From: an uncultured Ignavibacteriales bacterium
GTDB taxonomy: Bacteria > Zixibacteria > MSB-5A5 > GN15 > FEB-12
DNA length: 64,000 nt
Direction: 5' to 3'
NCBI GenBank assembly: GCA_964540105.1
Contig: CAZILL010000003.1
Location: 74,035 to 138,034 of the forward strand
A model generated the notes under the pieces. The model saw only the letters and a program-made list of their open reading frames with translations, did no database searches and was not told where the DNA came from. Positions 2-40,830 of this stretch are shown in pieces. A program made the translations under genes and the position numbers. The stretch's first letter is position 1; each line of letters opens with the position of its first letter.

Positions 2-1699
2 CAGAGTTACCTGACTTCCGGCATAGGCGTGTTTGCGCCGTATGGCGGCTATCCGGTTCCATGTCCGTGCGACCCGATGCTTAACCCGATGCCGGACTCA
101 ATTGACATCTTTGGGAATCTGCATGTTTCAAGCGGGACCTCGATCCTTGATTCTTCGGGCGGCGCACTTCATGTGACAAACCGGTACCAAAGACAGATGG
201 ATGGTGTTCAGGTAAGAAATCTCACCAGCTGGAGTTGGTATGGGGAGCTCAGTCCCCTCGATCCACTGGGCACGCTGCCGATTGGAGCCAGAGTCACGGT
301 ATACGATCCCGGAGACGGCAGTTGGGGGGACGATACACTGAAGATTGCCCAGACGAAAACAGGCGACAACACCTGGGATTTGTCTGCCGTGACGAATGGC
401 ATAAAAACAATGATACGCGCGTTTTATGATGGGGACACTCTCATGGTGGATAGCTGTGAGCCATGGTGTGCCTGGATCTCCCTCGGTACGCTGGCCGGAA
501 CCTGGAAGGTTGTAGAGGGGGAAACTGAAGTACTATCTCCGACGGGTATCTATCCGACGGGCTTCAAAGGGTCGACTACAGGCAAACCGCCGACACTTGC
601 CTGGGTGTTCCCTGAGTCGCATCCGATCTGGACTTGGCCAGGGCATGGCATAGCGGGCGTGCCGATCGATGGGCTTGAAGTCACGTTCGAGAGTGTGCCG
701 CCGTACCGCGATACGCTTAAGTCCATATACATACTGGCGGACAGTATCCAAACGTTTTCGATGCGCGCCGGCAGTACGGCCGAGCCGGATACCTTGGACA
801 TCTGGAGAGTCAGGAACATTTCACTGGGGTTGGCGCACCTGAGCCTGGCGGGCGGGAACCTCAAGGTCTCGAATATGGGCCCAACCTACGGCGACGGCGT
901 GGTGCAACAAATCGGCAGCAGGCGGTCGTGGGACGCGACGCTGGCGAACCCCGATCAGGGAGATACGCTTCCAATCGGGGCTAAGCTGGCGATCGATTTC
1001 CGGGGGACAGTCGGTGCTGCGCCTGACCAGTGGGTGATGCAGATGTCACAGAAGAAGACGGGTGTGCGTCAGTGGCTACTCGATGTCAAGTCTGTCGCAA
1101 CAAAGTATACAGTCAATGCGATGCGGAACGGCGCGCAGGTGTTCCATCGCACGGGATTGACTGTCGCTGATCTGGGCACGATCACAGAACCGGCCGGCAT
1201 GTTCAAGTCACCGGATGGGGTTTACCCAGCTGGATTCAAAGGGTCGTCTACGGGCAAGCCTGCTGGAATGGCCTGGTCTTACCCGTCCGGCCCAGATGTG
1301 ACGTGGAACTGGCCCGCTCAGGGTGTGGTGGCGATGGCGATTGACCAGCTCGAGGCGATCGCCGAAGGGACGTATCCGATCGGACCGCCGTCGGGGGCAG
1401 CTGCAGTGGGCGAGCTGTCTCGAGTGATCATCACGGCGCACGACATTCCGGCCCTTGAATTCGACTCGGTGTGGGTCTACTGCTGCATGGGTACAACCGG
1501 CAACACGGATGGCTCCATGGACGATGTCGTAGACATTTCCGATGTGTTTGCGGTCGTGGATTATCTCGGCGCGAGCATTCCGTTGTCGACATGTGCTCTG
1601 GAGAACGACGCCAATATCGACGGCACGATTGATATCGGTGATCTGTTCGCGGTGATCGATTACCTGAGCGGTGTGGTGGGGCTGCCACCATGTCCGTAG
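2..1699 (+). CDS. Secreted repeat protein with C-terminal dockerin-like Ca-binding module (5' partial, N-terminus outside window)
   Basis: The frame is open from nt 2, with no stop upstream of the GTG at 29. There are two internal ~225-aa repeats: GIYPTGFKGSTTGKP at nt 545-589 versus GVYPAGFKGSSTGKP at nt 1216-1260, and TLPIGARV versus TLPIGAKL. The C-terminus carries two EF-hand-like dockerin segments, TGNTDGSMDDVVDISDVFAVVDYL and ENDANIDGTIDIGDLFAVIDYL. Confidence 0.6.
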   Translation, partial: QSYLTSGIGVFAPYGGYPVPCPCDPMLNPMPDSIDIFGNLHVSSGTSILDSSGGALHVTNRYQRQMDGVQVRNLTSWSWYGELSPLDPLGTLPIGARVTVYDPGDGSWGDDTLKIAQTKTGDNTWDLSAVTNGIKTMIRAFYDGDTLMVDSCEPWCAWISLGTLAGTWKVVEGETEVLSPTGIYPTGFKGSTTGKPPTLAWVFPESHPIWTWPGHGIAGVPIDGLEVTFESVPPYRDTLKSIYILADSIQTFSMRAGSTAEPDTLDIWRVRNISLGLAHLSLAGGNLKVSNMGPTYGDGVVQQIGSRRSWDATLANPDQGDTLPIGAKLAIDFRGTVGAAPDQWVMQMSQKKTGVRQWLLDVKSVATKYTVNAMRNGAQVFHRTGLTVADLGTITEPAGMFKSPDGVYPAGFKGSSTGKPAGMAWSYPSGPDVTWNWPAQGVVAMAIDQLEAIAEGTYPIGPPSGAAAVGELSRVIITAHDIPALEFDSVWVYCCMGTTGNTDGSMDDVVDISDVFAVVDYLGASIPLSTCALENDANIDGTIDIGDLFAVIDYLSGVVGLPPCP

Positions 1700-1707
1700 T
1701 GAGTAGG

Positions 1708-1843
1708 TCTTGACCTAACCCCCCAGCCCCCTTCCCGACACGGGAAGGGGGAGGAAGGGTTGGGTCGATTTGGCAATTTGTTTAACGGGATTGTAACCCC
1801 TCACCCCTGTCCCCTCTCCCACGCGTGGGAGAGGAGGATGTTG
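1708..1843. repeat. Copy 1 of a ~135-bp intergenic double-hairpin repeat
   Basis: Near-identical to 1941-2075. Contains a perfect 11-bp stem cccccttcccg/cgggaaggggg (1727-1751) and the palindrome cctctcccacg/cgtgggagagg (1813-1834). Confidence 0.85.
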
Positions 1844-1940
1844 AGTCAAGGCGGTGCGTACGTTGCGCCGGTTCTTGTCCCTGTTCAACGGGGATTTGAA
1901 CTGGCGCTTTCTCTGTGTAAACTGGCCGACTCGTTTGGGT

Positions 1941-2075
1941 TCTTGACCTAACCCCCGTCCCCCTTCCCGACACGGGAAGGGGGAGAAAGGGTTTGGTCGA
2001 TTTGGCGATTTATTTAACGGGATTGTAACCCCTCACCCCTGTCCCCTCTCCCACGCGTGGGAGAGGAGGATGTTG
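1941..2075. repeat. Copy 2 of a ~135-bp intergenic double-hairpin repeat
   Basis: Direct repeat of 1708-1843, offset by 233 bp, with a few substitutions or indels. Hairpins lie at 1959-1983 and 2045-2066. Confidence 0.85.
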
Positions 2076-2185
2076 TATCAGGTCAAATCTCCGACAGACA
2101 GGGAGCTGGGAATGCTGTGCCTAGCCCCAAAAGTTGCTTGCGGGTGTGTGGAAAAGCCTGCAATTTGCTGCCGCTTCGATGATTG

Positions 2186-2272
2186 GCCGGAGTGGTGGAA
2201 TTGGTAGACACCAGGGACTTAAAATCCCTTGCTTCCTAACGGGGCGTACCGGTTCGAGTCCGGTCTCCGGCA
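2186..2272 (+). tRNA. tRNA-Leu (anticodon UAA), type II with long variable arm
   Basis: Acceptor GCCGGAG/CTCCGGC plus discriminator A. Anticodon stem-loop AGGGA-CTTAAAA-TCCCT. T-arm ACCGG-TTCGAGT-CCGGT. Long variable arm. 87 nt. Confidence 0.9.
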
Positions 2273-2290
2273 TATGTTTCAGGCAAAGAG

Positions 2291-2319
2291 AAAGCCCCCG
2301 CCGATCGGCAGGGGCTTTC
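2291..2319. terminator. Bidirectional hairpin between tRNA-Leu and the 3' end of the cytochrome operon
   Basis: aaagcccc-gccgatcggca-ggggcttt stem flanked by A/T runs on both sides. Lies between convergent tRNA (+) and CDS (-). Confidence 0.65.
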
Positions 2320-2347
2320 TTTCAAAGTCGCGCTCTGCTGGATGCGC

Positions 2348-3433
2348 TTAGTGTGCGCGAAGATAGTTGATCGAACTCCAGATGAGGTCGTGAGCGTACT
2401 TGAAGTTGTGAATACCCTCTGATCTGTCCTCTTCGAGCATCACAAAGTTCCAGATGGCGCCAGCAATATTCTTGTCGGCAACAGTCACAGTCTTTGGCGC
2501 ATACGTGGTGTCGGTGCCGGTCACGGTTCGGGTCAACAGACTCTTGCCGACCAGAAGCACGGCCAGAGAATCCATCATGCCGTGAAATTCCGTCTGGTAC
2601 CCTTCGACCTTGCCGTCCTTGTCAAAGTCATAGGCCGTGTTTGCAGCGTCGGCGATGAAGTTGAAGGAGGCTGTGGCTTTGGCATGGCACGGTGTGCAGA
2701 CGTTTACCATGGTATAGCCGGACTCTTCATCCACCATGTTGAAACTGTGACCGCCGATCTTGTAACCGTCATGAACCTGCGGATTCCCCATGTGGCAGCC
2801 GATGCAGGCGTCGGTGATCGCAGTCGAGTGTGTGGAAGTGTTGTAAGTTACGCCGGCAAATTCGTAGCCGCCAGTCTTCTGAATCAGATCCCCCTGGGGG
2901 CCGTGGTGCGGACCGAAGCGATTAGTGACCTTTGCACTGTCGATGACGCTCACCGCAACCGATGTGCGATTATGATGACAGACGACACACAAGTTCGACT
3001 TGCCATGATCGAAAACGACGCCGTTGGCAAGGGTGTAGGCTTTTGTTGTGCGCATGTCCAACGACCCGGTCGAGTGTGGCGCATGGCACGTGAAGCAGTG
3101 AATGGCGCTGGCGTTTTCATATGGTCCCGCGATCTTTGCCGAATCGACCCAGAGGACGAATCCCTGATGATCATGGCAGCGGGTACAATCGGTACCGGCG
3201 CCGCCCCGGTTGGTGTAGTCAACGCTGGTCCCGGAAGCGTGAATCGAGTTCTGCCACTCGCCCTCGGCCTGCTGCAGCTTGCCGTCGAAATCATTATGGC
3301 AGGTCATGCAGGCGTCGGCCCCGAGGAGGCTATTATCGTAGTTATTGACTACGTTGGTTACTTTGCGTTCGCACCCGGCAGCCAGGATCAGTATGACAGC
3401 CATCAGGGCGACGATCAGTTTCGAGGTTTTCAT
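2348..3433 (-). CDS. Hexaheme c-type cytochrome lipoprotein (candidate outer, extracellular component of a porin-cytochrome conduit)
   Basis: Six CXXCH motifs: CMTCH, CTRCH, CFTCH, CVVCH, CIGCH, CTPCH. N-terminal signal with lipobox LAAG-C. SD AAGGAGAG upstream. 11-nt gap to the upstream barrel gene. Confidence 0.85.
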   Translation of the reverse strand: MKTSKLIVALMAVILILAAGCERKVTNVVNNYDNSLLGADACMTCHNDFDGKLQQAEGEWQNSIHASGTSVDYTNRGGAGTDCTRCHDHQGFVLWVDSAKIAGPYENASAIHCFTCHAPHSTGSLDMRTTKAYTLANGVVFDHGKSNLCVVCHHNRTSVAVSVIDSAKVTNRFGPHHGPQGDLIQKTGGYEFAGVTYNTSTHSTAITDACIGCHMGNPQVHDGYKIGGHSFNMVDEESGYTMVNVCTPCHAKATASFNFIADAANTAYDFDKDGKVEGYQTEFHGMMDSLAVLLVGKSLLTRTVTGTDTTYAPKTVTVADKNIAGAIWNFVMLEEDRSEGIHNFKYAHDLIWSSINYLRAH

Positions 3434-3444
3434 TGCATCTCTCC

Positions 3445-5028
3445 TTAGAAGCTCAAGTCCTTAGTCAAATTCACTTCAACGATATTTGCGGTGTAGTACG
3501 AGTTCGTGACGATGAAGTCATCATAGTTGAACACATTGTAGCGAACCTCGACATGATGATTGGCCAGGAAGGCATAAGTCAGGCCAAAATTGAGGTTGAA
3601 TTTCTCGATGTCGATGTCGCGTTTACTTCGATAATAATTCCAGCCGAAGTCGGCCGCGAGATTCTTGTACGCGCGAGGTGAAATCGTTCCTGAGACGACA
3701 TGATCGGCAAACTCAAAACTAACGGTGTCGCTCCGATTCTCGAATGTGCCCCGGTTGTATGCATAGCCGACGACGATCGATCCCCACTTTTCGTTCGTGA
3801 GATTCAGATCGGACGACAGGGCATTGTAGTCCACTTTGCTTCGGATATCAGCGTTCTTGCGGGAACGACCCTGCCATTGAATGGAGAGGTTGCACCCTTC
3901 TCTCGCGCTATAACGAGCCGCGAGCATTTGACGAGTCAGGTCCTCATTGCCCAGGAGAGTGGAACCTTCGTCGACGCTGTTTGTCCGTGTGGCGACGTTC
4001 CCGCGGAAGTACCAGCGGTCGTTCGGCCTCAGCCAGCCGTTAGCCAGAACACCTGAGGAGCTGGTCTTATTGATAAAGTCATCGGCAATCTGGTACTCGT
4101 AGCCGAGCCGCACTCCACCGAGACGCCCCCAATTCTTGCCGAGTGAGGTCGTGTGCAGAATGTGATCAGTTTCCGATGTGGAAACCTGATAGGCGCTGGC
4201 AGGCGTTGTGTAGCCATACACCAATCGATAATCGAATACCATGCTCTCCGGCAACGTCACTCGTCCTCCGAGCCAGAACTGATTCGAAGTCAGTTTCTCG
4301 TCAGTATCTTGAATCTTGTCCTGGCGGTACTTGTATCCACCGGATAGAGTGAGCCTGTCGACTCGTGGGACTTTGGAAAAAAGTGACACTGTGAAGTTAT
4401 CGGCTGTCCGATCGGTGTTGGTTGCAGTCTTGTCGTCGAAGGCATAGTGACGATATTCGGTGCGAAGCATACCGAAGCGATCGCCAACCTGCATGCCAGC
4501 GTTGAAACTCGTGTGGTCATAGTCGGTGTTTCGCACGGTCATTTCAGTGGCCGGGGAGAGGGTAGGAAGAACGTCACCGTGCTTCATGGTCACGCTGTAA
4601 CCGCCGAAGAATTTTACCCAGCGAATCGGCTGCACACTCCCCTGAATGTCGGTATGGTTGCGGCGCGTGAAATTGCCACCGTTGAAATCATGGAAACGCC
4701 GGTATTGATTGTTAGCCGCGCTCAGGTTGAACAAACCACTTTTCCCATACGATATCCGGAGGTTACGGTTGTTCAGTGTGATGTTCCTCAGGTCCGCGGT
4801 TAAGGCCGATCCGTCGGCAAAGTCAATGCGCCAGTCCTGAAGTGACAGGGCCGGACCTTCGTACCAGTTGTACGTTTCTTGATTGACCGCCATGCTCCCT
4901 TCCTGATCCATGTACGTATAGCCGACCTTTACTTTTCCTCCGCCATCGGCCCCGAGGATCACAATTGGCGTCAATATGCAGACGATCAGAGCGAGAAGTA
5001 CGGTTCTCTTGAGTTTATCTGTTTTCAT
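3445..5028 (-). CDS. Outer-membrane beta-barrel, MtrB/PioB-like porin of a porin-cytochrome complex
   Basis: Sec signal peptide (MKTDKLKRTVLLALIVCILTPIVILGADG). Amphipathic alternating strands rich in Y/G/N/R/D and a C-terminal Phe (LTKDLSF). The N-terminal region LRNITLNNRNLRISYGKSGLFNLSAANNQYRRF resembles the MtrB-family pattern. Sandwiched between two multiheme cytochromes. Confidence 0.7.
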   Translation of the reverse strand: MKTDKLKRTVLLALIVCILTPIVILGADGGGKVKVGYTYMDQEGSMAVNQETYNWYEGPALSLQDWRIDFADGSALTADLRNITLNNRNLRISYGKSGLFNLSAANNQYRRFHDFNGGNFTRRNHTDIQGSVQPIRWVKFFGGYSVTMKHGDVLPTLSPATEMTVRNTDYDHTSFNAGMQVGDRFGMLRTEYRHYAFDDKTATNTDRTADNFTVSLFSKVPRVDRLTLSGGYKYRQDKIQDTDEKLTSNQFWLGGRVTLPESMVFDYRLVYGYTTPASAYQVSTSETDHILHTTSLGKNWGRLGGVRLGYEYQIADDFINKTSSSGVLANGWLRPNDRWYFRGNVATRTNSVDEGSTLLGNEDLTRQMLAARYSAREGCNLSIQWQGRSRKNADIRSKVDYNALSSDLNLTNEKWGSIVVGYAYNRGTFENRSDTVSFEFADHVVSGTISPRAYKNLAADFGWNYYRSKRDIDIEKFNLNFGLTYAFLANHHVEVRYNVFNYDDFIVTNSYYTANIVEVNLTKDLSF

Positions 5029-5040
5029 GGTTGCACCTCT

Positions 5041-5982
5041 CTATCGAACCGTATAGTGGCAGTAGCAGTTAGCCCCACCGAGCAGGGCAGGGAGGTTTTC
5101 GTCCAGTAAGCGGCGATCTGCAAACGAGCCGTGAGCGCCAGTATGACATACCACGCAATCGATCTTAGCCCAGGCTGCGCCATGCTGAACACTCTGCAGA
5201 TGCTTTGGAACCGAGTGGCACTGCTTGCAGATCTGATTCACCGGCTGTTTGAGAAGACGGTCGTTGTCACTGCCGTGAGGGTCGTGACATTCGATGCAGG
5301 CGCCACCATTCACATCGCTGGAATTCGAGGCTGCGTGCTCATACGGGAATGGACCACCCTGTTCAGGATGACAATTCTGGCACGTGCGATCATCACCGAA
5401 CGCATAATTTTGGTCTGTCCTGTGTGAAAATCGATGACAGCTGAGGCAGGTCATGGTTCCTTGTCGGACCGGGTGGTTCGACCGTTTCATGAAGGATCCC
5501 TTTGTTGCTGTATGGCAGGTCAGGCAGAAGTCGGCACTTTCATCGAGAAGCTGCGACGATGCCGTGTTGTGGACTTTGTGGCACGAAGCGCAATTAGTCT
5601 GCTGAGAGGAATGAATGTCGTAGCCATAGTTGTCCAGCTGCTGATGAGGAAGGTGGCAGGTGCCACAGGCTTCGACAGCGTCCTTACCGGCCAAGCGTGC
5701 GGGATTCCCGATATTCTCGACGGTCGGATCCCCAACATGTTGCTCACTTCCCGAGTGGCAGCTCGTGCACTGCAAAGAGATCGCCGGCGCTTTGACTTCG
5801 GCGCCAAGAATGTGCGGACCCTTGGCGAGGGATCGATCATACCCGTCATGACATCCCAGACAGTCTGCGCTTGGTACTAGCCCACTGTCCGCAAATCCAT
5901 GGACGGGAAGAGCGAACAAGGCGATTAGGACAGATACCAGGGCTCCTGCCGAGTTCAGTATCTGCAAAAATGTTCGTTTCAT
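5041..5982 (-). CDS. Periplasmic decaheme c-type cytochrome (MtrA/PioA/DmsE-like)
   Basis: Ten CXXCH motifs in ~313 aa. Signal peptide MKRTFLQILNSAGALVSVLIALFALPVHGFA. I place the start at ATG 5982 (SD GGAG 6 nt upstream) rather than the track start at 6015. 12-nt gap to the barrel gene. Confidence 0.85.
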   Translation of the reverse strand: MKRTFLQILNSAGALVSVLIALFALPVHGFADSGLVPSADCLGCHDGYDRSLAKGPHILGAEVKAPAISLQCTSCHSGSEQHVGDPTVENIGNPARLAGKDAVEACGTCHLPHQQLDNYGYDIHSSQQTNCASCHKVHNTASSQLLDESADFCLTCHTATKGSFMKRSNHPVRQGTMTCLSCHRFSHRTDQNYAFGDDRTCQNCHPEQGGPFPYEHAASNSSDVNGGACIECHDPHGSDNDRLLKQPVNQICKQCHSVPKHLQSVQHGAAWAKIDCVVCHTGAHGSFADRRLLDENLPALLGGANCYCHYTVR

Positions 5983-6400
5983 CCTGTTCTCCGATAGCTT
6001 GAGTCTAAATGTCATCGTAACGTCATTTTCGTTTCCCTTGTATCGGCAGATTCGTCAGGACTTAAACGATCCTTGTTGAATAAGAACAGATTAGCGGGAT
6101 GATTATGTACGTTTACGTAGACTATTAGTCCGTGCTTGAGATATCGCGTGTCATAACAAGGAGTTACGCCGTAACGAACCAGGATGACTCGACCGTAAAA
6201 CGACGACAAGATTAGTTATGTATTTTCGATACAAGAAGTTACGTGAGTGTTGGAAGCACCCCCCTCAACCACCCTTCTGGCAGTTCTCCCCCGTGAGGAG
6301 AAGAGGAAGGGATGAGGGATTTGCGACCTTGCGAAGCCCTTTCGACAAGCCCTTATGCGTGGATGAGCATAGGATGGAAGATGGAAGAGGGTCGCGGAGG

Positions 6401-7798
6401 TCAGTCGAAGATTTTGCCGGGGTTCAGGATTCCGCGGGGGTCGAATTGGTGCTTGATGAGGCGCATCAGTTCGAGGCTGTCCTGATGTTGGGATTGAAAC
6501 AGCTCTTTGTGGCCGAGCCCGATCCCATGTTCTCCCGAAATCGAGCCGCCCACTTCGACAGACTTTCTGATAATGAGATCATTGACACGATTAGCGGCTT
6601 TCCATTCACTGCTATTCTTCCTGTCGGCAATCATGAGGGCGTGGAGCAAACCCATTCCTACATGCCCAAAAGTGAATATTGTCACCCCGGCCCGGTCGGC
6701 CAGGTCGTAGCAGAATTCGACGATCTCGGGAAGCCTCGAGATGGGGAAGGCGACGTCGTTGCGGATGATGCTGCATCCCGGACGGAAGTGCTTGACGGCG
6801 TCAGTTGCCCAATGACGGATTTCCCAGGGACGATGTCCTTCGGAAAGAGTCAGTGAGGAACCTCCGAGCTCGACACAGATCGCCTCGGCAGTGGAGTTGT
6901 TGGCATCGGTTGCAGTTTGGGGGCCGTGGAATTCCAGGAAGAGGCAAGGGACCTCTTCGAGCGCATAGCCCTTCAAACGATTTAGCGCGCTGATCAATCT
7001 GCGATCAAGAAACTCAATGGCAGCCAGGTCGAGCCCACAGCGACGCATGTCGGAGACTGCTTTCGCCGCCGAGATTTCGGAGTCAAACCGATACGCAGCC
7101 TGCAGTCGGTGTTCCGGAATCCCCTCAAGCTTGAGCGTAACGCCGGTTACTATCGCCAGGGTACCTTCGGAACCGCAGATCAAATCCGTCAGATTGTAAC
7201 CAGAGGATCGCTTGATGGCCCGGCTACCGAGTCGAAGGATTTCACCGGAACCGGTGACGACGGTAAGGGCAAGCACGTATTCCCGAGTTCCGCCGTACTT
7301 GACTGAGTAGATGCCGCTGGCGTTGGTTGACACCATTCCCCCGACGGTCGCGACGTCGCCCGAACCGCCCGGTGAGGGAGGGAAGAAGAGCCCCTCGCGT
7401 TTGAGTCGCTCATTTAGGTGATCGTAGATAATCCCGGGTTCAACCTCCACTTGAAGGTCGTCGGGCCACAGGTTGACAACGTGGTTCATGCGGCTGAGGT
7501 CCAGAACAATGCCTTCGCGTGAGGGAATAGTAGAGCCTTCGAGTGCGCTGCCGGCCCCACGCGCTGTGATTGGGGTTCCCTCGGCGGCACACATCGAAAC
7601 AACCGCGGAAACCTCTTGTGATGTCAGGGGCCAAAGAACCGCTATCGGAACGACCGGAGGGCTTGATGATTCGTCGTGGGACGCAACTGAAAGATGATCG
7701 GGGTGGGTTGAAAACCTATCGTGCGGAAACAGGCTGGCAAGCCGCTGAACAATTTCCAAGTGTCGATTCACTTCCTCGCTGCACCTTTCGTTCACCAC
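6401..7798 (-). CDS. FAD-linked oxidase (GlcD / D-lactate dehydrogenase family)
   Basis: FAD_binding_4-like N-terminal region (TARGAGSALEGSTIP). C-terminal motifs GGSISGEHGIGLGHKE and DPRGILNPGKIF are typical of the GlcD family. Confidence 0.8.
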   Translation of the reverse strand: MVNERCSEEVNRHLEIVQRLASLFPHDRFSTHPDHLSVASHDESSSPPVVPIAVLWPLTSQEVSAVVSMCAAEGTPITARGAGSALEGSTIPSREGIVLDLSRMNHVVNLWPDDLQVEVEPGIIYDHLNERLKREGLFFPPSPGGSGDVATVGGMVSTNASGIYSVKYGGTREYVLALTVVTGSGEILRLGSRAIKRSSGYNLTDLICGSEGTLAIVTGVTLKLEGIPEHRLQAAYRFDSEISAAKAVSDMRRCGLDLAAIEFLDRRLISALNRLKGYALEEVPCLFLEFHGPQTATDANNSTAEAICVELGGSSLTLSEGHRPWEIRHWATDAVKHFRPGCSIIRNDVAFPISRLPEIVEFCYDLADRAGVTIFTFGHVGMGLLHALMIADRKNSSEWKAANRVNDLIIRKSVEVGGSISGEHGIGLGHKELFQSQHQDSLELMRLIKHQFDPRGILNPGKIFD

Positions 7799-7978: not shown

Positions 7979-9286
7979 ATGAAACAGAGCAAACAGGACC
8001 ACAAGGTCAGCCATGCGCACCTCAGCGAGCATCAGTCGGCCTTTGACAACGCCCTGAAGCAGTTTGACCGCGCCGCGAGGATCATCAAGCTGACGCCAGA
8101 CCAGGTAGCGATCATCAAGGAGCCGCGCAAGATCACGGAAGTGAAGATTCCTGTACGTATGGACGACGGCTCGGTGCGAATCTTCAAGGGGTATCGGGTG
8201 CAGCATAATATTGCGCGCGGCCCCGCCAAAGGGGGCGTCCGATTTCACCCGGACGTCAATCTCGATGAAGTCAAGGCGCTCGCGTTTTGGATGACCTTCA
8301 AGTGCGCCGTTATTGGCATTCCTATGGGGGGCGGCAAGGGGGGTGTCATTGTCGATCCGCGCAAACTGAGCGCAGGAGAACTGGAGCGCTTGTCACGACG
8401 TTACTTCGCCGACATGATCGAGCTCTTTGGGCCCGACCGCGATGTGCCGGCTCCCGATGTCAATACGAACCCGCAGATCATGGCCTGGTTCATGGACACA
8501 TATTCGATGCATTACGGCGGGGATTATCTTCCTGCAGTTGTCACCGGCAAGCCGCTTGAGTTGGGGGGATCACAGGGGCGCAATTCGGCGACGGCGCAAG
8601 GGATGGTGTTCTGCGTTATTCGAGCCGCGGAGCATTTGAAGATGAAACTTCCCAAGGCGAAGATAGCTATTCAGGGTTTTGGTAATGCGGGATCATTTGC
8701 GGCACTGCTTCTGCATGACCAGGGATGTGTGATCCAGGCGATCTCCGACATCGATGGGGCCTTCTATTCCGAAGAAGGAATCGACCCTCGGTTGGCAATC
8801 AAGCATGTTGAGAAGAATGGGACACTCAAGGGCTTCGATAAGGCGGCCAAGATCAAACGGCTTGGCGATCCTCTGAAACTTCTTGAACTGCCGGTCGACA
8901 TTCTCATCCCAGCTGCCCTCGAGAACCAGATAACCGGCGAAAACGCAGGAAAGATCAAAGCCCGAATCGTGGCGGAGTGCGCGAATGGACCCTGCACTCC
9001 TGAAGCCGACGATATTCTCGAGAAGAGGAAGACTTTCGTCATTCCTGACATCCTCTGCAACGCAGGAGGGGTAGGGGTGTCGTATCTGGAGTGGGTGCAG
9101 AACCGGATGGGGTACTACTGGACCAACGAGCGCGTTCAGGAGGATCTGAAGCGCATGATGGAAAAGGCATTTGCCGACGTTCTGGAGACGGCGCTCACGC
9201 ACGAAGTTCCCATGCGCACGGCAGCGTTCATCATTGCGATTCAGCGAGTGGCCAGAGCTGCCGAGCTTCGCGGGCTCTACGCATAG
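7979..9286 (+). CDS. gdhA: Glutamate dehydrogenase (Glu/Leu/Phe/Val dehydrogenase family)
   Basis: Motifs GPAKGGVRFHP, GIPMGGGKGGV and the Rossmann motif IQGFGNAGS. Start moved to ATG 7979, which has AGGAG just upstream. Confidence 0.9.
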   Translation: MKQSKQDHKVSHAHLSEHQSAFDNALKQFDRAARIIKLTPDQVAIIKEPRKITEVKIPVRMDDGSVRIFKGYRVQHNIARGPAKGGVRFHPDVNLDEVKALAFWMTFKCAVIGIPMGGGKGGVIVDPRKLSAGELERLSRRYFADMIELFGPDRDVPAPDVNTNPQIMAWFMDTYSMHYGGDYLPAVVTGKPLELGGSQGRNSATAQGMVFCVIRAAEHLKMKLPKAKIAIQGFGNAGSFAALLLHDQGCVIQAISDIDGAFYSEEGIDPRLAIKHVEKNGTLKGFDKAAKIKRLGDPLKLLELPVDILIPAALENQITGENAGKIKARIVAECANGPCTPEADDILEKRKTFVIPDILCNAGGVGVSYLEWVQNRMGYYWTNERVQEDLKRMMEKAFADVLETALTHEVPMRTAAFIIAIQRVARAAELRGLYA

Positions 9287-9339
9287 TATTCACTCGATCA
9301 AAGCAGAAGAGAAGGCTGTCGCATGGATGGCCTTCATGC

Positions 9340-10290
9340 TCATGCTCGCTTGAGCAGGGGGTGTGATCGGGAGTTTGACCCGGTCGGGCTGGCAACACGG
9401 ATGTCGTGCGCGAGATGCACTGACGCGTAGGCGTCTTTGATCCCGAATCCATTTCCTTCGAGGGTACGGCGATAGACCTCGGTATGGAGCTCAGTGAAGC
9501 CCTCGGAAAATTCGATCTCAGAGCCGTCGATCGTGATTGAGCGAAACGTAGATTGCCCCTTTTGAATCGCCTCGGCAGGCAGATCTTCATCGTTGATTGA
9601 GAGATACCACTGAATCCGGGCGTGCTCCAGCTCAAGAAATCCGGCAGCGGTACGAGGGGCGCTCGCGTGGACTTCACTCGACTGGACCGGCCCGAAGAGC
9701 CAGATCAGGAGATCGAAGAAGTGAATGCCAATGTTCGTGGCTAAACCGCCGGATCGTTCCACTTGACCCTTCCAGGATACGAGATACCAGCCGCCACGAG
9801 TCGTTACGTACGTCAGGACTACGTCGTGCTTATTGGTCTTGCTCTCCCGGGCGAGTTGATCGTGAAGGGCTATCAATGCCGGGTGAACTCGAAGCTGCAG
9901 GATGGTGCTGACCCTTTGGCCGCTTTCTTGTTCGAGTTCCATGAGTGCGTCGAGATTCCAGGGATTCAGCGCCAGGGGCTTCTCACAGATGGCATCCGCC
10001 CCGATTCTGAGGGCAAAGCGAATGTGGGCGTCGTGGAGGTAATTCGGCGAGCAGATCGAGACAAATTGAACCCTGTGTTCGTCACCCATCCGCCGGAGTT
10101 TTTCGACGTGGCGATCAAACCGTTCGAATTCAGTGAAGAACTTCACGTCAGCGAAGAACCGATCGAGGATGCCGACCGAGTCGTTGGGGTCGACGGCCGC
10201 TATCAACGAGTGGCCGGTATCCTTAATAGCTTTCAGATGACGCGGGGCGATGTAGCCGCCTACGCCCGTGATTGCAAATCGTTTGGACAT
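9340..10290 (-). CDS. Gfo/Idh/MocA oxidoreductase, WbpB/WlbA-like (UDP-sugar 3-dehydrogenase type)
   Basis: The N-terminus MSKRFAITGVGGYIAPRHLKAIKDTGH resembles WbpB-type enzymes. Start at ATG 10290, preceded by GGAAGGAG. Confidence 0.65.
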   Translation of the reverse strand: MSKRFAITGVGGYIAPRHLKAIKDTGHSLIAAVDPNDSVGILDRFFADVKFFTEFERFDRHVEKLRRMGDEHRVQFVSICSPNYLHDAHIRFALRIGADAICEKPLALNPWNLDALMELEQESGQRVSTILQLRVHPALIALHDQLARESKTNKHDVVLTYVTTRGGWYLVSWKGQVERSGGLATNIGIHFFDLLIWLFGPVQSSEVHASAPRTAAGFLELEHARIQWYLSINDEDLPAEAIQKGQSTFRSITIDGSEIEFSEGFTELHTEVYRRTLEGNGFGIKDAYASVHLAHDIRVASPTGSNSRSHPLLKRA

Positions 10291-10465
10291 CAGAGCTCCT
10301 TCCAAGCGTGCCTTCATGATCTGTCTGTGTGCCACGATGAGGGAGGCGCGGGCACGCTATGACCGGGGCCATGATATGCAATGTTGACAGTGTTTGCAAC
10401 CTGTCTTCTGCGGGGTCAACGGGCTTGCTGTGAATAGCAATGGTACGGGCGAAGATGCACGGACT

Positions 10466-13400
10466 CTAAGTCGCCTGCTCGGGAATCAGCGCTCGGTCCA
10501 GCTCACGCCTGACGGCGGCTGCAATAGCTCTGCGGCTCAGAGGTTTCTTTACGAACGCCCCGGCGCCCAGTCGCTGTGCGTCGTCGACCCTGTCTGACTC
10601 CGAGAAGCCGGAAACAATGATCGCTTTCTGGTCGGATCTGATGAGCAACGACTGTCGGTACGTCTCTGTTCCATCGAGATCGCCGGGCATGATCATGTCC
10701 AGAAGCAGAAGATCGTACGCTTCTTCTCGCAAGAGTTCGATTGCCCTGGTGCCACTCTCACAGACCGTTACCTCGTATCCGAGCGTGGTCAGAAGTCGTG
10801 CGGATACGTCGCGCTGGATTTCGTCATCATCCACAATCAGGATGGTCTCGTCTCCGAGCAGTACTTCATCTGAGGCGGCTTCACTCAAGGCGGCCCGGGT
10901 GATCGGGAGATAGAGATAGAACGAGGTGCCCACTCCGACGGTCGTGCTCAGATCGATATGTCCGTCGTGATCCTTCAGCACGGCGTCGACCACGCTCAGG
11001 CCGAGACCGGACCCGCGCCTTCGGTCGGTCGATTTGGTCGTAAAGAAGGGATCGAAGATTTTCTGGACTACATCCTCCGGAATGCCGCACCCGGTGTCGG
11101 AGATGGTAATCTTCGCGTATTCCCCTCGCGGCACGCGACCGTAACAGATCGTGGTGTCATCAACATAGTAGTTTTCCGTCCTAATTGACATCCTTCCAAT
11201 GTCCTGCATCGCATCACGAGCGTTGACAAGAAGGTTCATGACCACCCGATGAAGTTGAGCCGTGCCCCCTTTGACATTCATCAAGTCATCCGCCAGAGTT
11301 GTTTCGATGACCAATGTGTCAGGAATCGGGATCATGTCCCGAAGCACGTCGTGCACAAGTTCGTTGAGATTCAGGATTTCGAGATTATAATGCCCTCGTC
11401 GACTCAGAGTGAGTAGCTGCTGATTGAGATCGGCAATCTTCTGCGCAGAGTCTTCGATGGCGTCGAGAAATTCGATCCCGGGATCACCGACGGGCAGTCG
11501 CTCTCGGATCAGCTCCGGGTAAGCCATTATCGGCGCCAGCATGTTGTTGAAGTCATGCGCCACCTGACCGGCAATCTTGCCCGCAGCTTCAAGCCGCTGG
11601 GCGCGCGACTCCAGATCCTGCAAGCGTCTATTCTCAGTAATATCAATCACCGCCCCAAACGCACCACGATAGTTCTTTTGATCGTCAAATCGAGGCGAGA
11701 TGGAAGCCAGGAGCGATCTTTTGCGTCCTCTGGCTGTGGTTATGTCGATTTCGTACTGAGTGGAGAGTCCCTGCTTCCTGAGATCTGTTTGGGACAGGAC
11801 TTTCGGGCGCTGTTCGACGGAAACAAAGTCGAGCAGGCATCGACCGACCAGTTCCTCGCGTGATGCGGCCTCAAAAAGGTCAACAAAAGCCGGGTTGCAG
11901 TATTGGATAACTTCAAACTGATCAACGACTCCGATTCCTTCCATAACCGAATTGAACAATTGATGATAGCGGCTCTCTGATAGCCGCAGTTCTTCCTCGG
12001 CTCTTTTGCGCACGGTAATGTCCCGCAGAAAACCCACAAGCAGTCCGCCCCGGTCAGGGAGAGACTGGATGCTGATTTCGACGTCGAAGAGGCTCCCGTC
12101 TTTGCGGCGATGACGAGACTCAAAACGATCAGCGCCGTGCGCGAAGATTCCTTGGATGCGCGCGGCCACCTCTGTGGGGGATGTCAGATCGATGTCCGTA
12201 ACATGCTTCGTTAATAGCTCCTGCTCAGTATAGCCACTCATGTGGCAATAGGTGTCGTTGACCTCCAGGAGGTTTCCCCGCACATCCGTCACCCAGAAGC
12301 CATCCATTGCGGTGCGAAGTATGGTCCTATGTTGCTCCTCACTTTCACGCAGAGCATCTTCGGCCCGTTTGCGCTCGGTGATGTCCAGATAGGTTCCCAG
12401 CACCCCGACGACCGTGCCACCTGCATCGCGGAGGGGAACTTTGCTCGTCAGGAGATGGATCTGTTCTCCTGAAGGGGTAGTCTGAGGCTCTTCAAACAGG
12501 AGTTTGGTTAACCCTGTTTCGATTACAGAGCGGTCATCGGCTTGGTAGAGTTCGGCTTGCTCCTTCCAGCCCATAACATGGTCATCCTTGCCAATGAGCT
12601 CCTCCGGTCTCTCGAAGCCTGCATCTCGCGCAAATTGCGCATTGCAACCCAGGAACTTCAGACTCCTGTCTTTCCAGAACACGCGTACCGGTATAGAGTT
12701 GAGGACGGCATGAAGAACTTCGCGCGATTCCCTCAGCGCCTCAACATCTCTCCTGCGGTCGGTGATATCCTGGACGTAACCGAGGTAGTGAGTAACGACG
12801 CCTTCGGGGTTGCGGATTACGATCGTGAAGTCATACAACCACCGATATTCTCCGTCGGCTCGCCGCAGCCGATACTCCTGCTCGAACATCGGAATCTTCT
12901 CGAGAGTGTACCTCTCGACCTCCTGTGCCACGCGCGCGAGATCGTCAGGATGTACTAGATCGGCGAAAGGAGGATCGGCGCTCATCAGCGCTTCTGCGCG
13001 ATGGCCGAATTGGTTGAACACGTTGTGGGACACATATTCCACGGGCCATCCGCTGGTTGCCCGCCATTTGAAAACAACAGTCGGCCCTCCAACAAACAGT
13101 CGTCGTTCTTCCTGCAGGGCGTTTTCAGCGTTCCTCCGTTCGGTAATGTCCCGCAGAAAAGCGACTATGCGTCCTCCTTCGATTGGCAGGTACTGCACCT
13201 GCACTTCGACGTCAAAGACGCTGCAATCCTTGCGACGATGACGAGTTTCAAAGCGATCCAGACCCAGCATGCTGACTCTTTGGAAGTGGACTGCGACATC
13301 ACTTGCGGACTCACAGGCCTCGAGGTCGGAGACACACATCGTTTTCAATTCTTGGACACTATAGCCGCTCATGCGGCTATACGCGTCGTTAACCTCAAGC

Positions 13401-14248
13401 AAGCGCCCGTCAAGATCGATCAAGCAGAAACCATCCATGGCCGTTTCGAGAATGGTTCGGTGCCGATCCTCACTGATGAGCAGCGCCGCCACTGCGGAGT
13501 CTCGCTCAAAGACTCTGCGTCGAATCTTGCGAAGCGCGAGAGCCAAGAACGTAACTCCGATCAGCCAAATTAGTCCCAGCGCAGAGGTGTGCTCGAATAT
13601 CTCGCTGCGAGCTTGAGCGAAGTAAGGTTCGGCCGCAACCGACACCCCTACGCCGCCCCGGATATCACCTTCTCGGTACCCCTGGCTTCCATGACACTTA
13701 AGGCACGGTTTGCCAGTGACCATTGGCCGCATGAGGCGTAAGTAAGGTTCTCCTTTGATCGTGGTAAATTCGCTGACTTCAGTTTCACCCCGCTCGAACG
13801 CTTCGAGCGCCAACCTCTCCCACTCATCAGGAGCATTCTCGGGGCGGAGCGGCTTGGCGCTCGTTATGCGTCCCCTGACGCCGTACAATTCCGCGTAATC
13901 GTCCATCATCTGCCTTACCATGTAGGCCGGATTCATCAGAGTCAGTTGCATCCCGGTGGTCGTCACGACATCACGGAGTGGAAGGTGGGCCAAGTACGGA
14001 TTCGGTGGCGTGTGTTCGGTCGGTGAAACGTAGACGCCCCCTTGCTTTGCTCCCCAGGCTCTGAAGGCCTGATCCTTGTGGAAGTGCGCGCGAGCCTCGT
14101 TTCGGATCAAAGAGCGCTGGTGCTCCATGGCGTTTCTGGACTCCAATACCGCCATGCCAGCCATAAGCGTTGTCCACCCGACCGCAATGACAATTGCGTA
14201 TTTTGTTACAGTGGAGCGATCAGTCTGCTTCTGAGATATCTTGTTCAC
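10466..14248 (-). CDS. Hybrid sensor histidine kinase: TM, DUF3365 (Tll0287-like, CXXCH heme-c) sensor, 5 PAS, HisKA, HATPase, receiver
   Basis: DUF3365-type region ending GKPCLKCHGSQGYREGDIRGG. Five PAS-like segments. H-box VAHDFNNML. ATPase motifs DTGCGIP and GSGLGLSVV. C-terminal receiver domain (ILIVDDD...LLLLDMIMPG...K). Confidence 0.85.
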   Translation of the reverse strand: MNKISQKQTDRSTVTKYAIVIAVGWTTLMAGMAVLESRNAMEHQRSLIRNEARAHFHKDQAFRAWGAKQGGVYVSPTEHTPPNPYLAHLPLRDVVTTTGMQLTLMNPAYMVRQMMDDYAELYGVRGRITSAKPLRPENAPDEWERLALEAFERGETEVSEFTTIKGEPYLRLMRPMVTGKPCLKCHGSQGYREGDIRGGVGVSVAAEPYFAQARSEIFEHTSALGLIWLIGVTFLALALRKIRRRVFERDSAVAALLISEDRHRTILETAMDGFCLIDLDGRLLEVNDAYSRMSGYSVQELKTMCVSDLEACESASDVAVHFQRVSMLGLDRFETRHRRKDCSVFDVEVQVQYLPIEGGRIVAFLRDITERRNAENALQEERRLFVGGPTVVFKWRATSGWPVEYVSHNVFNQFGHRAEALMSADPPFADLVHPDDLARVAQEVERYTLEKIPMFEQEYRLRRADGEYRWLYDFTIVIRNPEGVVTHYLGYVQDITDRRRDVEALRESREVLHAVLNSIPVRVFWKDRSLKFLGCNAQFARDAGFERPEELIGKDDHVMGWKEQAELYQADDRSVIETGLTKLLFEEPQTTPSGEQIHLLTSKVPLRDAGGTVVGVLGTYLDITERKRAEDALRESEEQHRTILRTAMDGFWVTDVRGNLLEVNDTYCHMSGYTEQELLTKHVTDIDLTSPTEVAARIQGIFAHGADRFESRHRRKDGSLFDVEISIQSLPDRGGLLVGFLRDITVRKRAEEELRLSESRYHQLFNSVMEGIGVVDQFEVIQYCNPAFVDLFEAASREELVGRCLLDFVSVEQRPKVLSQTDLRKQGLSTQYEIDITTARGRKRSLLASISPRFDDQKNYRGAFGAVIDITENRRLQDLESRAQRLEAAGKIAGQVAHDFNNMLAPIMAYPELIRERLPVGDPGIEFLDAIEDSAQKIADLNQQLLTLSRRGHYNLEILNLNELVHDVLRDMIPIPDTLVIETTLADDLMNVKGGTAQLHRVVMNLLVNARDAMQDIGRMSIRTENYYVDDTTICYGRVPRGEYAKITISDTGCGIPEDVVQKIFDPFFTTKSTDRRRGSGLGLSVVDAVLKDHDGHIDLSTTVGVGTSFYLYLPITRAALSEAASDEVLLGDETILIVDDDEIQRDVSARLLTTLGYEVTVCESGTRAIELLREEAYDLLLLDMIMPGDLDGTETYRQSLLIRSDQKAIIVSGFSESDRVDDAQRLGAGAFVKKPLSRRAIAAAVRRELDRALIPEQAT

Positions 14249-40775: not shown

Positions 40776-40830
40776 CGGCGAAAAATCGATTGCCTTCGGG
40801 CAACCTCCTGCTATATTCCCTTCAAATTGA

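What the first reader, a model, noticed from the sequence alone, without database searches (positions are those of the whole stretch)
2348..6015. Compact three-gene porin-cytochrome conduit (decaheme, barrel, hexaheme lipoprotein) with non-canonical order and sizes
Three minus-strand genes are packed with only 11-12 nt between them, each with its own SD.
- A ~313-aa Sec-exported protein carries exactly ten CXXCH motifs, matching the size and heme count of MtrA/DmsE-type periplasmic decahemes.
- A 527-aa signal-peptide protein has beta-barrel sequence character, a terminal Phe and an MtrB/PioB-like N-terminal pattern.
- A 361-aa lipoprotein (lipobox LAAG-C) carries six CXXCH motifs.

This is the logic of Mtr/Pio/Mto and Geobacter Pcc trans-outer-membrane electron conduits, but it differs in several ways:
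- The gene order is A-B-C, whereas Shewanella is C-A-B.
- The barrel is much shorter than the ~700-aa MtrB.
- The surface component is a small hexaheme rather than a decaheme MtrC/OmcA or a dodecaheme OmcB.

It may be an uncharacterised minimal variant of an extracellular electron transfer module. The direction of electron flow (metal reduction versus Fe(II) or electrode oxidation) cannot be read from the sequence.
Basis: partly seen in the sequence, partly recalled or inferred. Interest (0 to 1): 0.75.

Follow-up and report, generated by a model that had tools for sequence, protein, structure and literature searches.

The report
Compact three-gene outer-membrane electron conduit
Three tightly packed genes, probably from a Zixibacteria genome, encode a ten-haem protein, a 26-strand outer-membrane barrel and a six-haem lipoprotein that together look like a slimmed-down relative of the Shewanella MtrCAB "wire" for moving electrons across the outer membrane. 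The core pair was already noted in this phylum in 2013, but I found no description of the always-present third protein.

Summary
In detail: three minus-strand genes lie 12 and 11 nt apart, each with its own ribosome-binding site.

- **A** (5041-5982, 313 aa) has ten CXXCH motifs. It aligns end to end with the DmsE/MtrA decahaem model and with MtrA of the solved Mtr complex.
- **B** (3445-5028, 527 aa) models confidently as an all-beta protein with 26 strands, the same number as MtrB. Its best structural match is MtrB. It is short because every inter-strand connection is 13 residues or fewer.
- **C** (2348-3433, 361 aa) is a lipoprotein with six invariant CXXCH motifs and six further conserved histidines. 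Its C-terminal half is distantly related to the NrfA/octahaem nitrite reductase/OcwA group, but it has no CXXCK catalytic motif.

The A-B-C order holds in essentially every one of 60 related genome loci, nearly all from Zixibacteria.

The most likely reading is an MtrAB-type porin-cytochrome conduit with a distinct partner cytochrome. Whether C sits on the cell surface, and which way electrons flow, are not shown. MtrA/MtrB homologues in Zixibacteria were already reported in 2013, so this is a new variant of a known kind and of moderate interest.

The parts
5041..5982 (-). Gene A: periplasmic decahaem c-type cytochrome of the DmsE/MtrA type. 313 aa from the ATG at 5982; the ORF extends to an upstream ATG at 6015, giving 324 aa.
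   Evidence: Ten CXXCH motifs. TIGR03508 matches profile positions 3-257 of 258, E 5e-46, 157 bits. phmmer against 6r2q chain A (MtrA) gives E 2.6e-30. Homologues are named 'DmsE family decaheme' by JGI.
5989..5992 (-). Shine-Dalgarno-like GGAG, 6 nt before the ATG at 5982.
   Evidence: Read directly from the sequence. There is no comparable motif before the ATG at 6015.
3445..5028 (-). Gene B: 26-strand outer-membrane beta-barrel, an MtrB-like sheath. 527 aa, with a signal peptide and a C-terminal Phe.
   Evidence: AF2 model has pLDDT 87.4 and 26 DSSP strands. The top Foldseek PDB hit is 6r2q_B (MtrB), E 1.1e-15, TM 0.73, against 1e-8 for the next hit. 9 of 42 family members weakly hit PF11854.
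5036..5039 (-). Shine-Dalgarno-like GAGG in the 12-nt A-B spacer.
   Evidence: Read directly from the sequence.
2348..3433 (-). Gene C: hexahaem lipoprotein, 361 aa. Lipobox LAAG-C followed by a conserved ERK; the C-terminal helices resemble those of the NrfA family.
   Evidence: Six CXXCH motifs and Cys21. Both are invariant in 47-50 homologues, together with six conserved extra His. PF22113 scores 36 bits. The family profile matches octahaem nitrite reductase at E 4e-6 and OcwA at E 0.004. AF2 model has pLDDT 78.
3441..3446 (-). Shine-Dalgarno-like AAGGAG for C, overlapping the stop codon of B.
   Evidence: Read directly from the sequence.

Best explanation
The three genes form one operon for an MtrAB-type porin-cytochrome conduit with its own partner cytochrome.

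- A is exported by Sec and receives ten c-type haems. It sits inside B as a roughly 8-nm haem wire.
- B is a 26-strand outer-membrane barrel with almost no extracellular loops. It insulates A from the lipid.
- C is lipid-anchored through Cys21. Its six haems are probably all bis-His ligated. C exchanges electrons with the outer end of A and with an external partner such as a mineral, a shuttle or another cell.

What is shown: the motifs, the homologies of A and B, the predicted strand count and MtrB-like fold of B, and the universal A-B-C synteny.

What is inferred: that A and B form a complex, that C is on the cell surface, and the direction of flow. I lean slightly towards outward flow (reduction of an external acceptor). 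This is because a dedicated partner cytochrome is present, and because relatives place ImcH-like and CbcL-like membrane cytochromes next to the triad.
For: - A is a full-length DmsE/MtrA-type decahaem.
- B has 26 strands at pLDDT 87, the same number as MtrB (PMC7198977). MtrB is its best structural match by seven orders of magnitude. Some family members pass the Pfam threshold for MtrB_PioB. The family ends in a conserved Phe.
- C has an invariant lipobox Cys, six invariant CXXCH motifs and six near-invariant extra His. It has no CXXCK.
- Synteny was checked in 60 species-level genome loci found through B. An A-type ORF with 10-11 CXXCH precedes B in 52 loci. Four more are cut by a contig end, and there are no exceptions.
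- A C homologue follows B in 58 of the 59 loci that can be assessed. The remaining locus has a different 8-haem lipoprotein with the same signal peptide and CERKV start.
- Starting from C homologues instead leads to the same triad.
- A and B overlap by 4 nt in some loci, for example L009.
- In 7 loci C is replaced by a roughly 705-aa version with 12-13 haems that contains C as its C-terminal half. This kind of modular swapping is what I would expect of a terminal cytochrome.
- In relatives, a NapC/NirT-type 6-haem membrane cytochrome lies nearby in 15 loci, a cytochrome b561 fused to 11 haems in 2 loci, and a c554-like tetrahaem in 11 loci.
Against: - There is no experimental datum for any member of the family.
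- The window's B does not itself reach any Pfam or NCBIfam threshold. A scores 157 bits, below NCBIfam's cut-off of 192.
- The side of the outer membrane on which C sits cannot be read from the sequence.
- The fold of C has no significant match in the PDB by Foldseek, and the N-terminal third of the model has low confidence.
- No multimer model could be run.
- No inner-membrane quinol dehydrogenase or other multihaem gene lies in this 64-kb window.
- Some relatives place Rieske/cytochrome b genes next to the triad. Castelle et al. read that arrangement as pointing to Fe(II) oxidation.
Confidence: 0.7

Rival explanations
1. The conduit has only two components (A+B), like MtoAB or PioAB. C is a lipoprotein on the periplasmic face of the outer membrane that feeds or drains A from inside. 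The outer haem of A would then contact the external substrate directly through the nearly loop-less mouth of B.
For: - By default, lipoproteins of diderm bacteria face the periplasm (general knowledge).
- The inter-strand connections of B are all 13 residues or fewer. There is therefore little extracellular surface to hold a partner, and the end of A may be exposed.
- Castelle et al. found no homologues of known extracellular cytochromes in the Zixibacteria RBG-1 cluster.
Against: - C, or at least its N-terminal cassette, is always the gene directly after B.
- C is sometimes expanded to 12-13 haems. Size variation of this kind looks more like a terminal surface cytochrome than a periplasmic relay (inference).
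- Separate small c554-like periplasmic cytochromes are present in relatives.
- The invariant CERK directly after the lipidated Cys looks like a dedicated sorting or docking signal. That reading is inference only.
Confidence: 0.2
2. The architecture is the same, but its physiological role is electron uptake: oxidation of Fe(II), reduced minerals, cathodes or a syntrophic partner. This is what was proposed for the Zixibacteria RBG-1 Mtr cluster.
For: - The published interpretation for RBG-1 favoured Fe(II) oxidation (PMC3903129).
- One distant relative, L067, has Rieske and cytochrome b genes directly upstream of A.
- B lacks the N-terminal CXXC that, from my own knowledge, is typical of the MtrB of metal-reducing Gammaproteobacteria.
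- Mtr-type conduits are known to be reversible (general knowledge).
Against: - The 2013 argument rested on the absence of an extracellular cytochrome, whereas a conserved lipoprotein cytochrome follows B in every locus.
- ImcH-like and CbcL-like architectures lie next to the triad in other relatives. In Geobacter, proteins of this kind serve outward transfer (my own knowledge).
- Nothing in the window itself bears on the direction of flow.
Confidence: 0.35
3. C is a catalytic enzyme of the NrfA, octahaem nitrite reductase or MccA kind (a nitrite, hydroxylamine or sulfite reductase). A and B supply it with electrons, in analogy to DmsEF-DmsAB. Alternatively, C is a periplasmic enzyme that has nothing to do with A and B.
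For: - The C-family profile matches the C-terminal part of octahaem nitrite reductases (E 4e-6), NrfA (1e-5) and MccA (4e-4).
- Some homologues are auto-annotated as cytochrome c552 nitrite reductase.
- OcwA, a member of the same group, shows weak nitrite reductase activity (PMC6703420).
Against: - The match covers only residues 192-340, that is the last two haems plus the helices.
- PF02335 scores 18.6 bits, below its threshold of 24.1.
- C has no CXXCK.
- The family has six invariant CXXCH motifs and six near-invariant extra His, which is enough for six bis-His haems.
- C is a lipoprotein and is locked in synteny with A and B.
Confidence: 0.05

Closest known systems
MtrCAB of Shewanella (structure 6R2Q)
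   Same: - Both have a decahaem of about 310-330 aa next to a 26-strand barrel gene.
- A aligns with MtrA, and the B model matches MtrB best.
- In both, the third component is a multihaem lipoprotein.
   Different: - The gene order is A-B-C rather than C-A-B.
- B has 527 aa, against 649 residues in the solved MtrB chain 6r2q_B, because its inter-strand connections are all 13 residues or fewer. MtrB's surface loops extend about 45 A (PMC7198977).
- C has 6 haems and 361 aa, not 10 haems in four domains.
- C matches the OmcA/MtrC model at only 32 bits, against a cut-off of 209.
- B has no N-terminal CXXC.
MtoAB / PioAB (Fe(II)-oxidising Betaproteobacteria and Rhodopseudomonas)
   Same: The order is A then B. 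The decahaem and barrel belong to the same broad DmsE/MtrA and MtrB_PioB families, and B has no CXXC.
   Different: - Those systems have no outer multihaem lipoprotein gene after B. PioC is a HiPIP, and MtrC is said to be absent from Fe(II) oxidisers (FeGenie paper).
- From my own knowledge, PioB and MtoB are much longer than B.
Mtr-like cluster of Zixibacteria RBG-1 (Castelle et al. 2013, PMC3903129)
   Same: It comes from the same phylum. That paper reports colocated MtrA (decahaem) and MtrB (porin-type) homologues, with further cytochromes and a Rieske/cytochrome b complex nearby. L067 shows the same layout around an A-B-C triad.
   Different: That paper states that homologues of extracellular cytochromes are lacking, and it therefore leans towards Fe(II) oxidation. 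Here a conserved hexahaem lipoprotein directly follows B throughout the family. I could not check whether RBG-1 itself carries C.
Geobacter porin-cytochrome clusters (OmaB-OmbB-OmcB and the Ext clusters; Shi et al. 2014, PMC4245776)
   Same: The logic is the same: a periplasmic multihaem, a porin-like barrel and a lipoprotein multihaem in one cluster. FeGenie reported Geobacter-like porin-cytochrome operons in Zixibacteria.
   Different: - The characterised Pcc has an 8-haem periplasmic cytochrome and a 12-haem outer cytochrome (abstract).
- A belongs instead to the DmsE/MtrA decahaem type.
- No direct sequence comparison with Geobacter proteins was possible here.
OcwA of Thermincola potens (6I5B)
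   Same: OcwA is a multihaem cytochrome with an NrfA-family haem core and a C-terminal three-helix bundle, and it acts as a cell-surface terminal reductase (PMC6703420). The C-family profile matches it over profile positions 56-342 (E 0.004). The C model ends in three helices.
   Different: - OcwA has nine haems, two of them penta-coordinate, comes from a Gram-positive organism and is not a lipoprotein next to a barrel gene.
- C has six haems and enough conserved His for all of them to be bis-His.
DmsEFAB of Shewanella
   Same: It combines a DmsE-family decahaem with an MtrB-type barrel, in the order E-F followed by the terminal component.
   Different: The terminal component there is a molybdoenzyme (DmsAB), not a cytochrome.

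Membership tests
DmsE/MtrA decahaem cytochromes (NCBIfam TIGR03508) | Ten CXXCH motifs in a secreted protein of about 300-350 aa. | tested here: met
   Ten CXXCH, 313 aa, signal-peptide-like N-terminus.
DmsE/MtrA decahaem cytochromes (NCBIfam TIGR03508) | Score at or above the curated family cut-off. | tested here: not met
   157.2 bits against a cut-off of 192.2, although the alignment is end to end (profile positions 3-257 of 258, E 5e-46). phmmer against MtrA of 6R2Q gives E 2.6e-30. A is therefore a divergent relative rather than a curated member.
DmsE/MtrA decahaem cytochromes (NCBIfam TIGR03508) | Encoded next to an MtrB-type barrel gene. | tested here: met
   There is a 12-nt gap to B. 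The adjacency is conserved in 52 complete and 4 partial related loci.
MtrB/PioB barrels (Pfam PF11854) | Profile match at the gathering threshold. | tested here: inconclusive
   The window protein gives no hit at E<=1. Of 42 family members, 9 hit at E<0.1. Three of five checked score 23.6-28.6 bits against a threshold of 23, but on short and differing stretches.
MtrB/PioB barrels (Pfam PF11854) | 26-strand barrel able to sheath a decahaem. | tested here: met
   The AF2 model has 26 strands at pLDDT 87.4. Its best PDB match is MtrB 6r2q_B, E 1.1e-15, TM 0.73. MtrB has 26 strands (PMC7198977). Lumen size and threading of A were not tested.
MtrB/PioB barrels (Pfam PF11854) | Typical length of about 650-850 aa with long surface loops. 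| tested here: not met
   B has 527 aa. All full-length relatives listed among the best 150 of 179 hits in 1.84 billion representatives are 504-557 aa. All inter-strand connections are 13 residues or fewer.
OmcA/MtrC outer-membrane decahaems (TIGR03507) | Ten haems in a four-domain protein, with a score above the cut-off. | tested here: not met
   C has six CXXCH motifs. It scores 32.2 bits against a cut-off of 209.3. Only the haem-domain family PF22113 is matched, at 36 bits against a threshold of 30.
OmcA/MtrC outer-membrane decahaems (TIGR03507) | Lipoprotein signal peptide. | tested here: met
   LAAG-C lipobox. Cys21 is invariant in 47 homologues.
NrfA / octahaem nitrite reductase / MccA enzymes (PF02335 and relatives) | Catalytic haem (CXXCK in NrfA and ONR) and a full-length profile match. 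| tested here: not met
   No CXXCK. PF02335 scores 18.6 bits, below its threshold of 24.1. The family-profile match is limited to residues 192-340. Six conserved extra His are present.
NrfA / octahaem nitrite reductase / MccA enzymes (PF02335 and relatives) | C-terminal two-haem plus helical-bundle module. | tested here: met
   The A2 profile matches TvNiR at E 3.8e-6, NrfA at 1.2e-5, MccA at 4.4e-4 and OcwA at 4.3e-3. The model has three C-terminal helices.
Geobacter Pcc (OmaB/OmbB/OmcB) | 8-haem periplasmic cytochrome, porin-like protein and 12-haem lipoprotein, with sequence homology to them. | not tested
The haem counts differ (10 and 6). A does hit the GSU2203 decahaem family, at 142 bits against a cut-off of 325.
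Functional trans-outer-membrane conduit (any family) | A inserted in B, C exposed on the surface, and electron transfer across the membrane. | not testable with these tools
   This needs a multimer model with haems, localisation experiments and electrochemistry.

The most novel reading that the evidence does not exclude
C founds an undescribed class of cell-surface terminal cytochrome in diderm bacteria. It would be a six-haem lipoprotein combining an MtrC-like haem stretch with an NrfA/OcwA-type C-terminal module. It would be targeted by a conserved Cys-Glu-Arg-Lys cassette and dock on a nearly loop-less 26-strand MtrB-type barrel. If so, Zixibacteria (and neighbouring candidate phyla) would respire extracellular minerals through a minimal Mtr-type wire. 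The 2013 inference that their Mtr cluster lacks an outer cytochrome, and therefore serves Fe(II) oxidation, would need revising.
Probability: 0.35. Interest if true: 0.6.

Novelty: new variant of a known kind. Interest (0 to 1): 0.45.

Why it matters
Zixibacteria are uncultured, and several of the papers read here implicate them in subsurface iron cycling. Their role is inferred largely from this kind of gene cluster.

Two results sharpen that inference. The cluster is an invariant triad, and its third member is a lipoprotein cytochrome unrelated in architecture to MtrC or OmcA. That removes the main argument used in 2013 for Fe(II) oxidation.

For people who engineer electron conduits, a 26-strand sheath about 120 residues shorter than the solved MtrB chain, together with a 6-haem partner, would be the most compact Mtr-type module described. 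It would be a natural candidate for heterologous expression.

The finding also adds a second case, after OcwA, in which an NrfA-family module has been recruited into an extracellular electron transfer system.

Tried and rejected
- **Foldseek of the C model against the PDB** gave no hit below E = 1. Multihaem folds are poorly captured by this method, so I used a sequence profile against PDB sequences instead.
- **A profile of the B family against PDB sequences** found nothing. Only the fold comparison found MtrB.
- **The promoter and terminator scan of 1600-6500** found no more sites than in shuffled sequence. The operon boundaries therefore rest on gene spacing alone.
- **Whether the B family grades into canonical ~700-aa MtrB/PioB.** An exhaustive HMMER search of 1.84 billion representatives found only 179 hits. 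All full-length hits listed were 504-557 aa, so no bridge was seen.
- **A 572-aa neighbour of a second cytochrome gene in L002-L005** is not a B paralogue. hhalign matches only the signal peptide.
- **C as a bona fide NrfA-type enzyme** was considered and rejected for the reasons given under the rival explanations.
- **A horizontally acquired island** was considered, because a tRNA-Leu lies 76 nt beyond C. GC content across the triad (0.54) matches its surroundings, and the neighbouring FAD-oxidase gene is syntenic in 7 loci. I did not pursue this further.
- **The source organism** could not be named directly, because the cluster look-up returned no organism names. Assignment to Zixibacteria rests on the labels of the closest homologues.

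Full report
**Observation**

The window contains three minus-strand ORFs at exactly the stated coordinates: 5041-6015, 3445-5028 and 2348-3433.
- The first has ten CXXCH motifs.
- The second has none, has only two Cys, and ends in ...DLSF.
- The third has six CXXCH motifs and a lipobox LAAG-C with Cys21.
- The spacers are 12 and 11 nt.
- GAGG precedes B, and AAGGAG precedes C, overlapping B's stop codon.
- For A, the ATG at 5982 has a GGAG 6 nt upstream whereas the first ATG at 6015 has none. The likely product is therefore 313 aa, which fits the 306-348 aa of the relatives' ORFs.
- In a greedy ORF set for the whole window, no other ORF has more than one CXXCH. The clustering is not chance.

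**Gene A**
- NCBIfam's DmsE-family decahaem model aligns end to end (profile positions 3-257 of 258, E 5e-46). The score of 157 bits is below the curated cut-off of 192.
- Against PDB sequences the best match is chain A of 6R2Q, E 2.6e-30, over residues 42-279. The file mislabels that chain, but 6R2Q is the Mtr complex of Edwards et al. (PMC7198977), and I take chain A to be its decahaem MtrA.
- 735 homologue clusters were found. JGI names many of them 'DmsE family decaheme c-type cytochrome'. The named ones come from Zixibacteria and, in a few cases, from MAGs labelled Latescibacteria, Krumholzibacteria or FCB group.

**Gene B**
- The window protein hits nothing in Pfam or NCBIfam.
- It has 86 homologue clusters of 484-572 aa, and every named one is from Zixibacteria/GN15.
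- An exhaustive profile search of 1.84 billion representative proteins found only 179 relatives. Every full-length one among the 150 listed is 504-557 aa long. This is a small, length-constrained family.
- Nine of 42 members give weak hits to Pfam MtrB_PioB. Three of five examined pass the gathering score, but on short, differing stretches.
- An AlphaFold2 model built on the 42-sequence alignment has mean pLDDT 87.4 and 26 beta strands.
- Foldseek against the PDB puts MtrB (6r2q_B) first at E 1.1e-15 and TM 0.73. The next hits are 22-strand TonB-dependent receptors and LptD, at 1e-8 or worse.
- MtrB is a 26-strand barrel with surface loops extending about 45 A. In the B model no connection between strands exceeds 13 residues.
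- B is therefore not a smaller barrel. It has the same strand count as MtrB with the loops pared away.

**Gene C**
- 667 homologue clusters were found. The named ones are almost all from Zixibacteria, and a few are auto-named as cytochrome c552 nitrite reductase.
- In alignments of 50 and 47 sequences, the lipobox Cys, the six haem motifs and six further His (65, 120, 176, 202, 229, 342) are invariant or nearly so. One haem motif has altered spacing in some members.
- There is no CXXCK. Twelve conserved His for six haems fits six bis-His electron-transfer haems. That is inference, not proof.
- Pfam gives a modest match to the MtrC/MtrF haem domain on residues 36-161 (36 bits, threshold 30). 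It gives a sub-threshold match to cytochrome c552 on residues 196-356 (18.6 bits, threshold 24.1).
- A family profile searched against PDB sequences gives significant but partial matches of residues 192-340. These are to octahaem nitrite reductases (E 4e-6), NrfA (1e-5) and MccA (4e-4). A longer, weaker match is to 6I5B (E 0.004, positions 56-342).
- 6I5B is OcwA, the cell-surface terminal reductase of Thermincola. It has an NrfA-like core and a C-terminal three-helix bundle.
- The AF2 model of C (pLDDT 78, weak in the N-terminal third) ends in three helices. It has no significant Foldseek match.
- C is therefore neither an MtrC/OmcA-type protein nor an NrfA-type enzyme. It is a distinct hexahaem lipoprotein carrying an NrfA-family C-terminal module.

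**Conservation of the triad**

A scan of one genome per species with the B profile returned 60 loci. Nearly all are from Zixibacteria MAGs. Some carry labels such as Ignavibacteria or Calditrichota that look unreliable, because their proteins are interleaved with Zixibacteria ones.
- An ORF of 306-348 aa with 10-11 CXXCH ends at the start of B in 52 loci.
- Four more such ORFs are cut by a contig end, and two loci have no upstream sequence. There are no counter-examples.
- A homologue of C follows B in 58 of the 59 loci that can be assessed.
- The exception, L032, has a different 8-haem lipoprotein that shares only the signal peptide, the lipobox, the CERKV start and the first haem motif.
- In seven loci C is a roughly 705-aa version with 12-13 haems. 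It consists of the same N-terminal 50 residues, an insertion of about 330 aa, and then the C body.
- Starting from C homologues in two near-complete Zixibacteria genomes leads to the same A-B-C arrangement, as does the most distant B homologue.
- A more distant version (B 25% and C 29% identical) lies in a MAG labelled Krumholzibacteria. It sits next to Rieske/cytochrome b genes, a 9-haem cytochrome, a cytochrome b561-multihaem fusion and a c554-like protein. This is the layout Castelle et al. described for Zixibacteria RBG-1.

**Wider context**

Apart from the triad, neighbours are not widely conserved.
- In 15 of the 60 loci there is a roughly 510-aa membrane-anchored 6-haem protein with a NapC/NirT N-terminal region.
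- In two loci there is an 11-haem protein fused to a cytochrome b561 domain.
- In 11 loci there is a c554-like tetrahaem.
- By architecture these resemble Geobacter ImcH and CbcL and small periplasmic carriers. That resemblance is recalled from memory and was not tested.
- None of them lies in this window.
- The window's neighbours are a glutamate dehydrogenase, an FAD-linked oxidase, a GFO/IDH/MocA-family oxidoreductase and a large hybrid sensor kinase with a haem-c Tll0287-like domain.

**Mechanism**

The best-supported reading is an MtrAB-type insulated haem wire (A inside B) with C as its dedicated lipid-anchored partner.
- Steps shown: the motifs, homology, predicted fold and synteny.
- Steps inferred: insertion of A into B, the side of the membrane on which C sits, and the direction of electron flow.
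- I put about 0.85 on A and B forming a trans-outer-membrane conduit, and about 0.55-0.6 on C being surface-exposed.
- I lean only slightly towards outward flow.

**What is already known**
- MtrA/MtrB homologues in Zixibacteria were published in 2013, with the comment that extracellular cytochrome homologues were lacking.
- FeGenie (2020) listed porin-cytochrome operons in Zixibacteria.
- Later surveys call Zixibacteria potential iron oxidisers and reducers.
- In the searchable literature I found no description of the conserved third gene, of its NrfA/OcwA-like module, or of the 26-strand short-loop barrel.

**Verdict**

The finding is a real, well-conserved variant of a known kind of system in an uncultured phylum. 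It is of moderate interest.

Noticed in passing
window 2186-2272 (+): tRNA-Leu (anticodon TAA) lies 76 nt beyond the stop of gene C and is convergent with it. GC content across the triad matches the surroundings, so there is no sign of an island.
   Followed up: partly
window 29-1699 (+): A 556-aa ORF with no Pfam hit. By eye it consists of two similar halves, followed by two dockerin-like DxDxDG repeats at the C-terminus.
   Followed up: partly
window 10466-14248 (-): A 1260-aa hybrid sensor kinase. It has an N-terminal Tll0287-like domain with one CXXCH (a likely haem-c sensor), several PAS domains, HisKA, HATPase and a receiver. It lies 4.4 kb upstream of the triad on the same strand and could be a redox-sensing regulator. 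In L002-L005 a sensor kinase and a sigma-54 activator lie upstream of the triad instead.
   Followed up: partly
L001 5149-5847; L004 4956-5891: In the public gene calls for a copy of the window's own contig (L001) and for L004, the decahaem gene A was not called. Short ORFs on the opposite strand were called in its place. No 100%-identical copy of A exists in the protein collection (the best is 92%). Surveys based on those gene calls would miss the cytochrome.
   Followed up: partly
L009, L011, L018, L020, L023, L028, L053 (gene after B): In seven relatives C is replaced by a roughly 705-aa lipoprotein with 12-13 haems. It consists of C's first ~50 residues, a multihaem insertion of about 330 aa, and then the C body.
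   Followed up: partly
L032 2324-3481 (+): In this locus the gene after B encodes a different 8-haem lipoprotein. It shares only the signal peptide, the lipobox, the CERKV start and the first haem motif with C. This hints that the N-terminal cassette is a separable targeting or docking element.
   Followed up: partly
L066 8808-9117 (+) and downstream: In a complete genome labelled Latescibacterota (CP070677.1), C is truncated to 103 aa (GCERK plus the first haem motif). It is followed by DnaB-type and other helicase genes, which may mark a mobile-element insertion.
   Followed up: no
L002-L005, about 8700-11900 (-): A second, divergent cluster lies beside the triad. It consists of a 307-aa multihaem cytochrome, a 572-aa protein with no family hit (not a B homologue by hhalign) and a 133-aa protein. 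It may be another conduit type.
   Followed up: partly
L009 7546-9111; L020 3218-5194; L067 749-2827 and 2995-4544: Relatives place several membrane cytochromes next to the triad: an ImcH-like one (NapC/NirT-type, 6 haems), a CbcL-like one (cytochrome b561 fused to multihaem), and in L067 Rieske plus cytochrome b genes. None of these is present in this window.
   Followed up: partly
window 40827-40946 (+): An FMN riboswitch (102 bits) lies in front of a RibD-like gene whose longest ORF is 40891-42120.
   Followed up: no
window 58052-63969 (-): A secretin, a PilM-like protein and a GspF-like protein form a cluster of the type II secretion or type IV pilus kind. This shows a diderm envelope. In Shewanella (from my own knowledge) type II secretion is needed to place MtrC and OmcA on the surface. 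No link to the triad was tested.
   Followed up: no
L008, L014, L018, L019 and others: Several MAGs that carry the triad are labelled Ignavibacteriales or Calditrichota. Their C proteins are nevertheless close to those of Zixibacteria MAGs in identity to the window's C, length and lipobox (for example L014 against L013). Some taxonomic labels are probably unreliable.
   Followed up: partly
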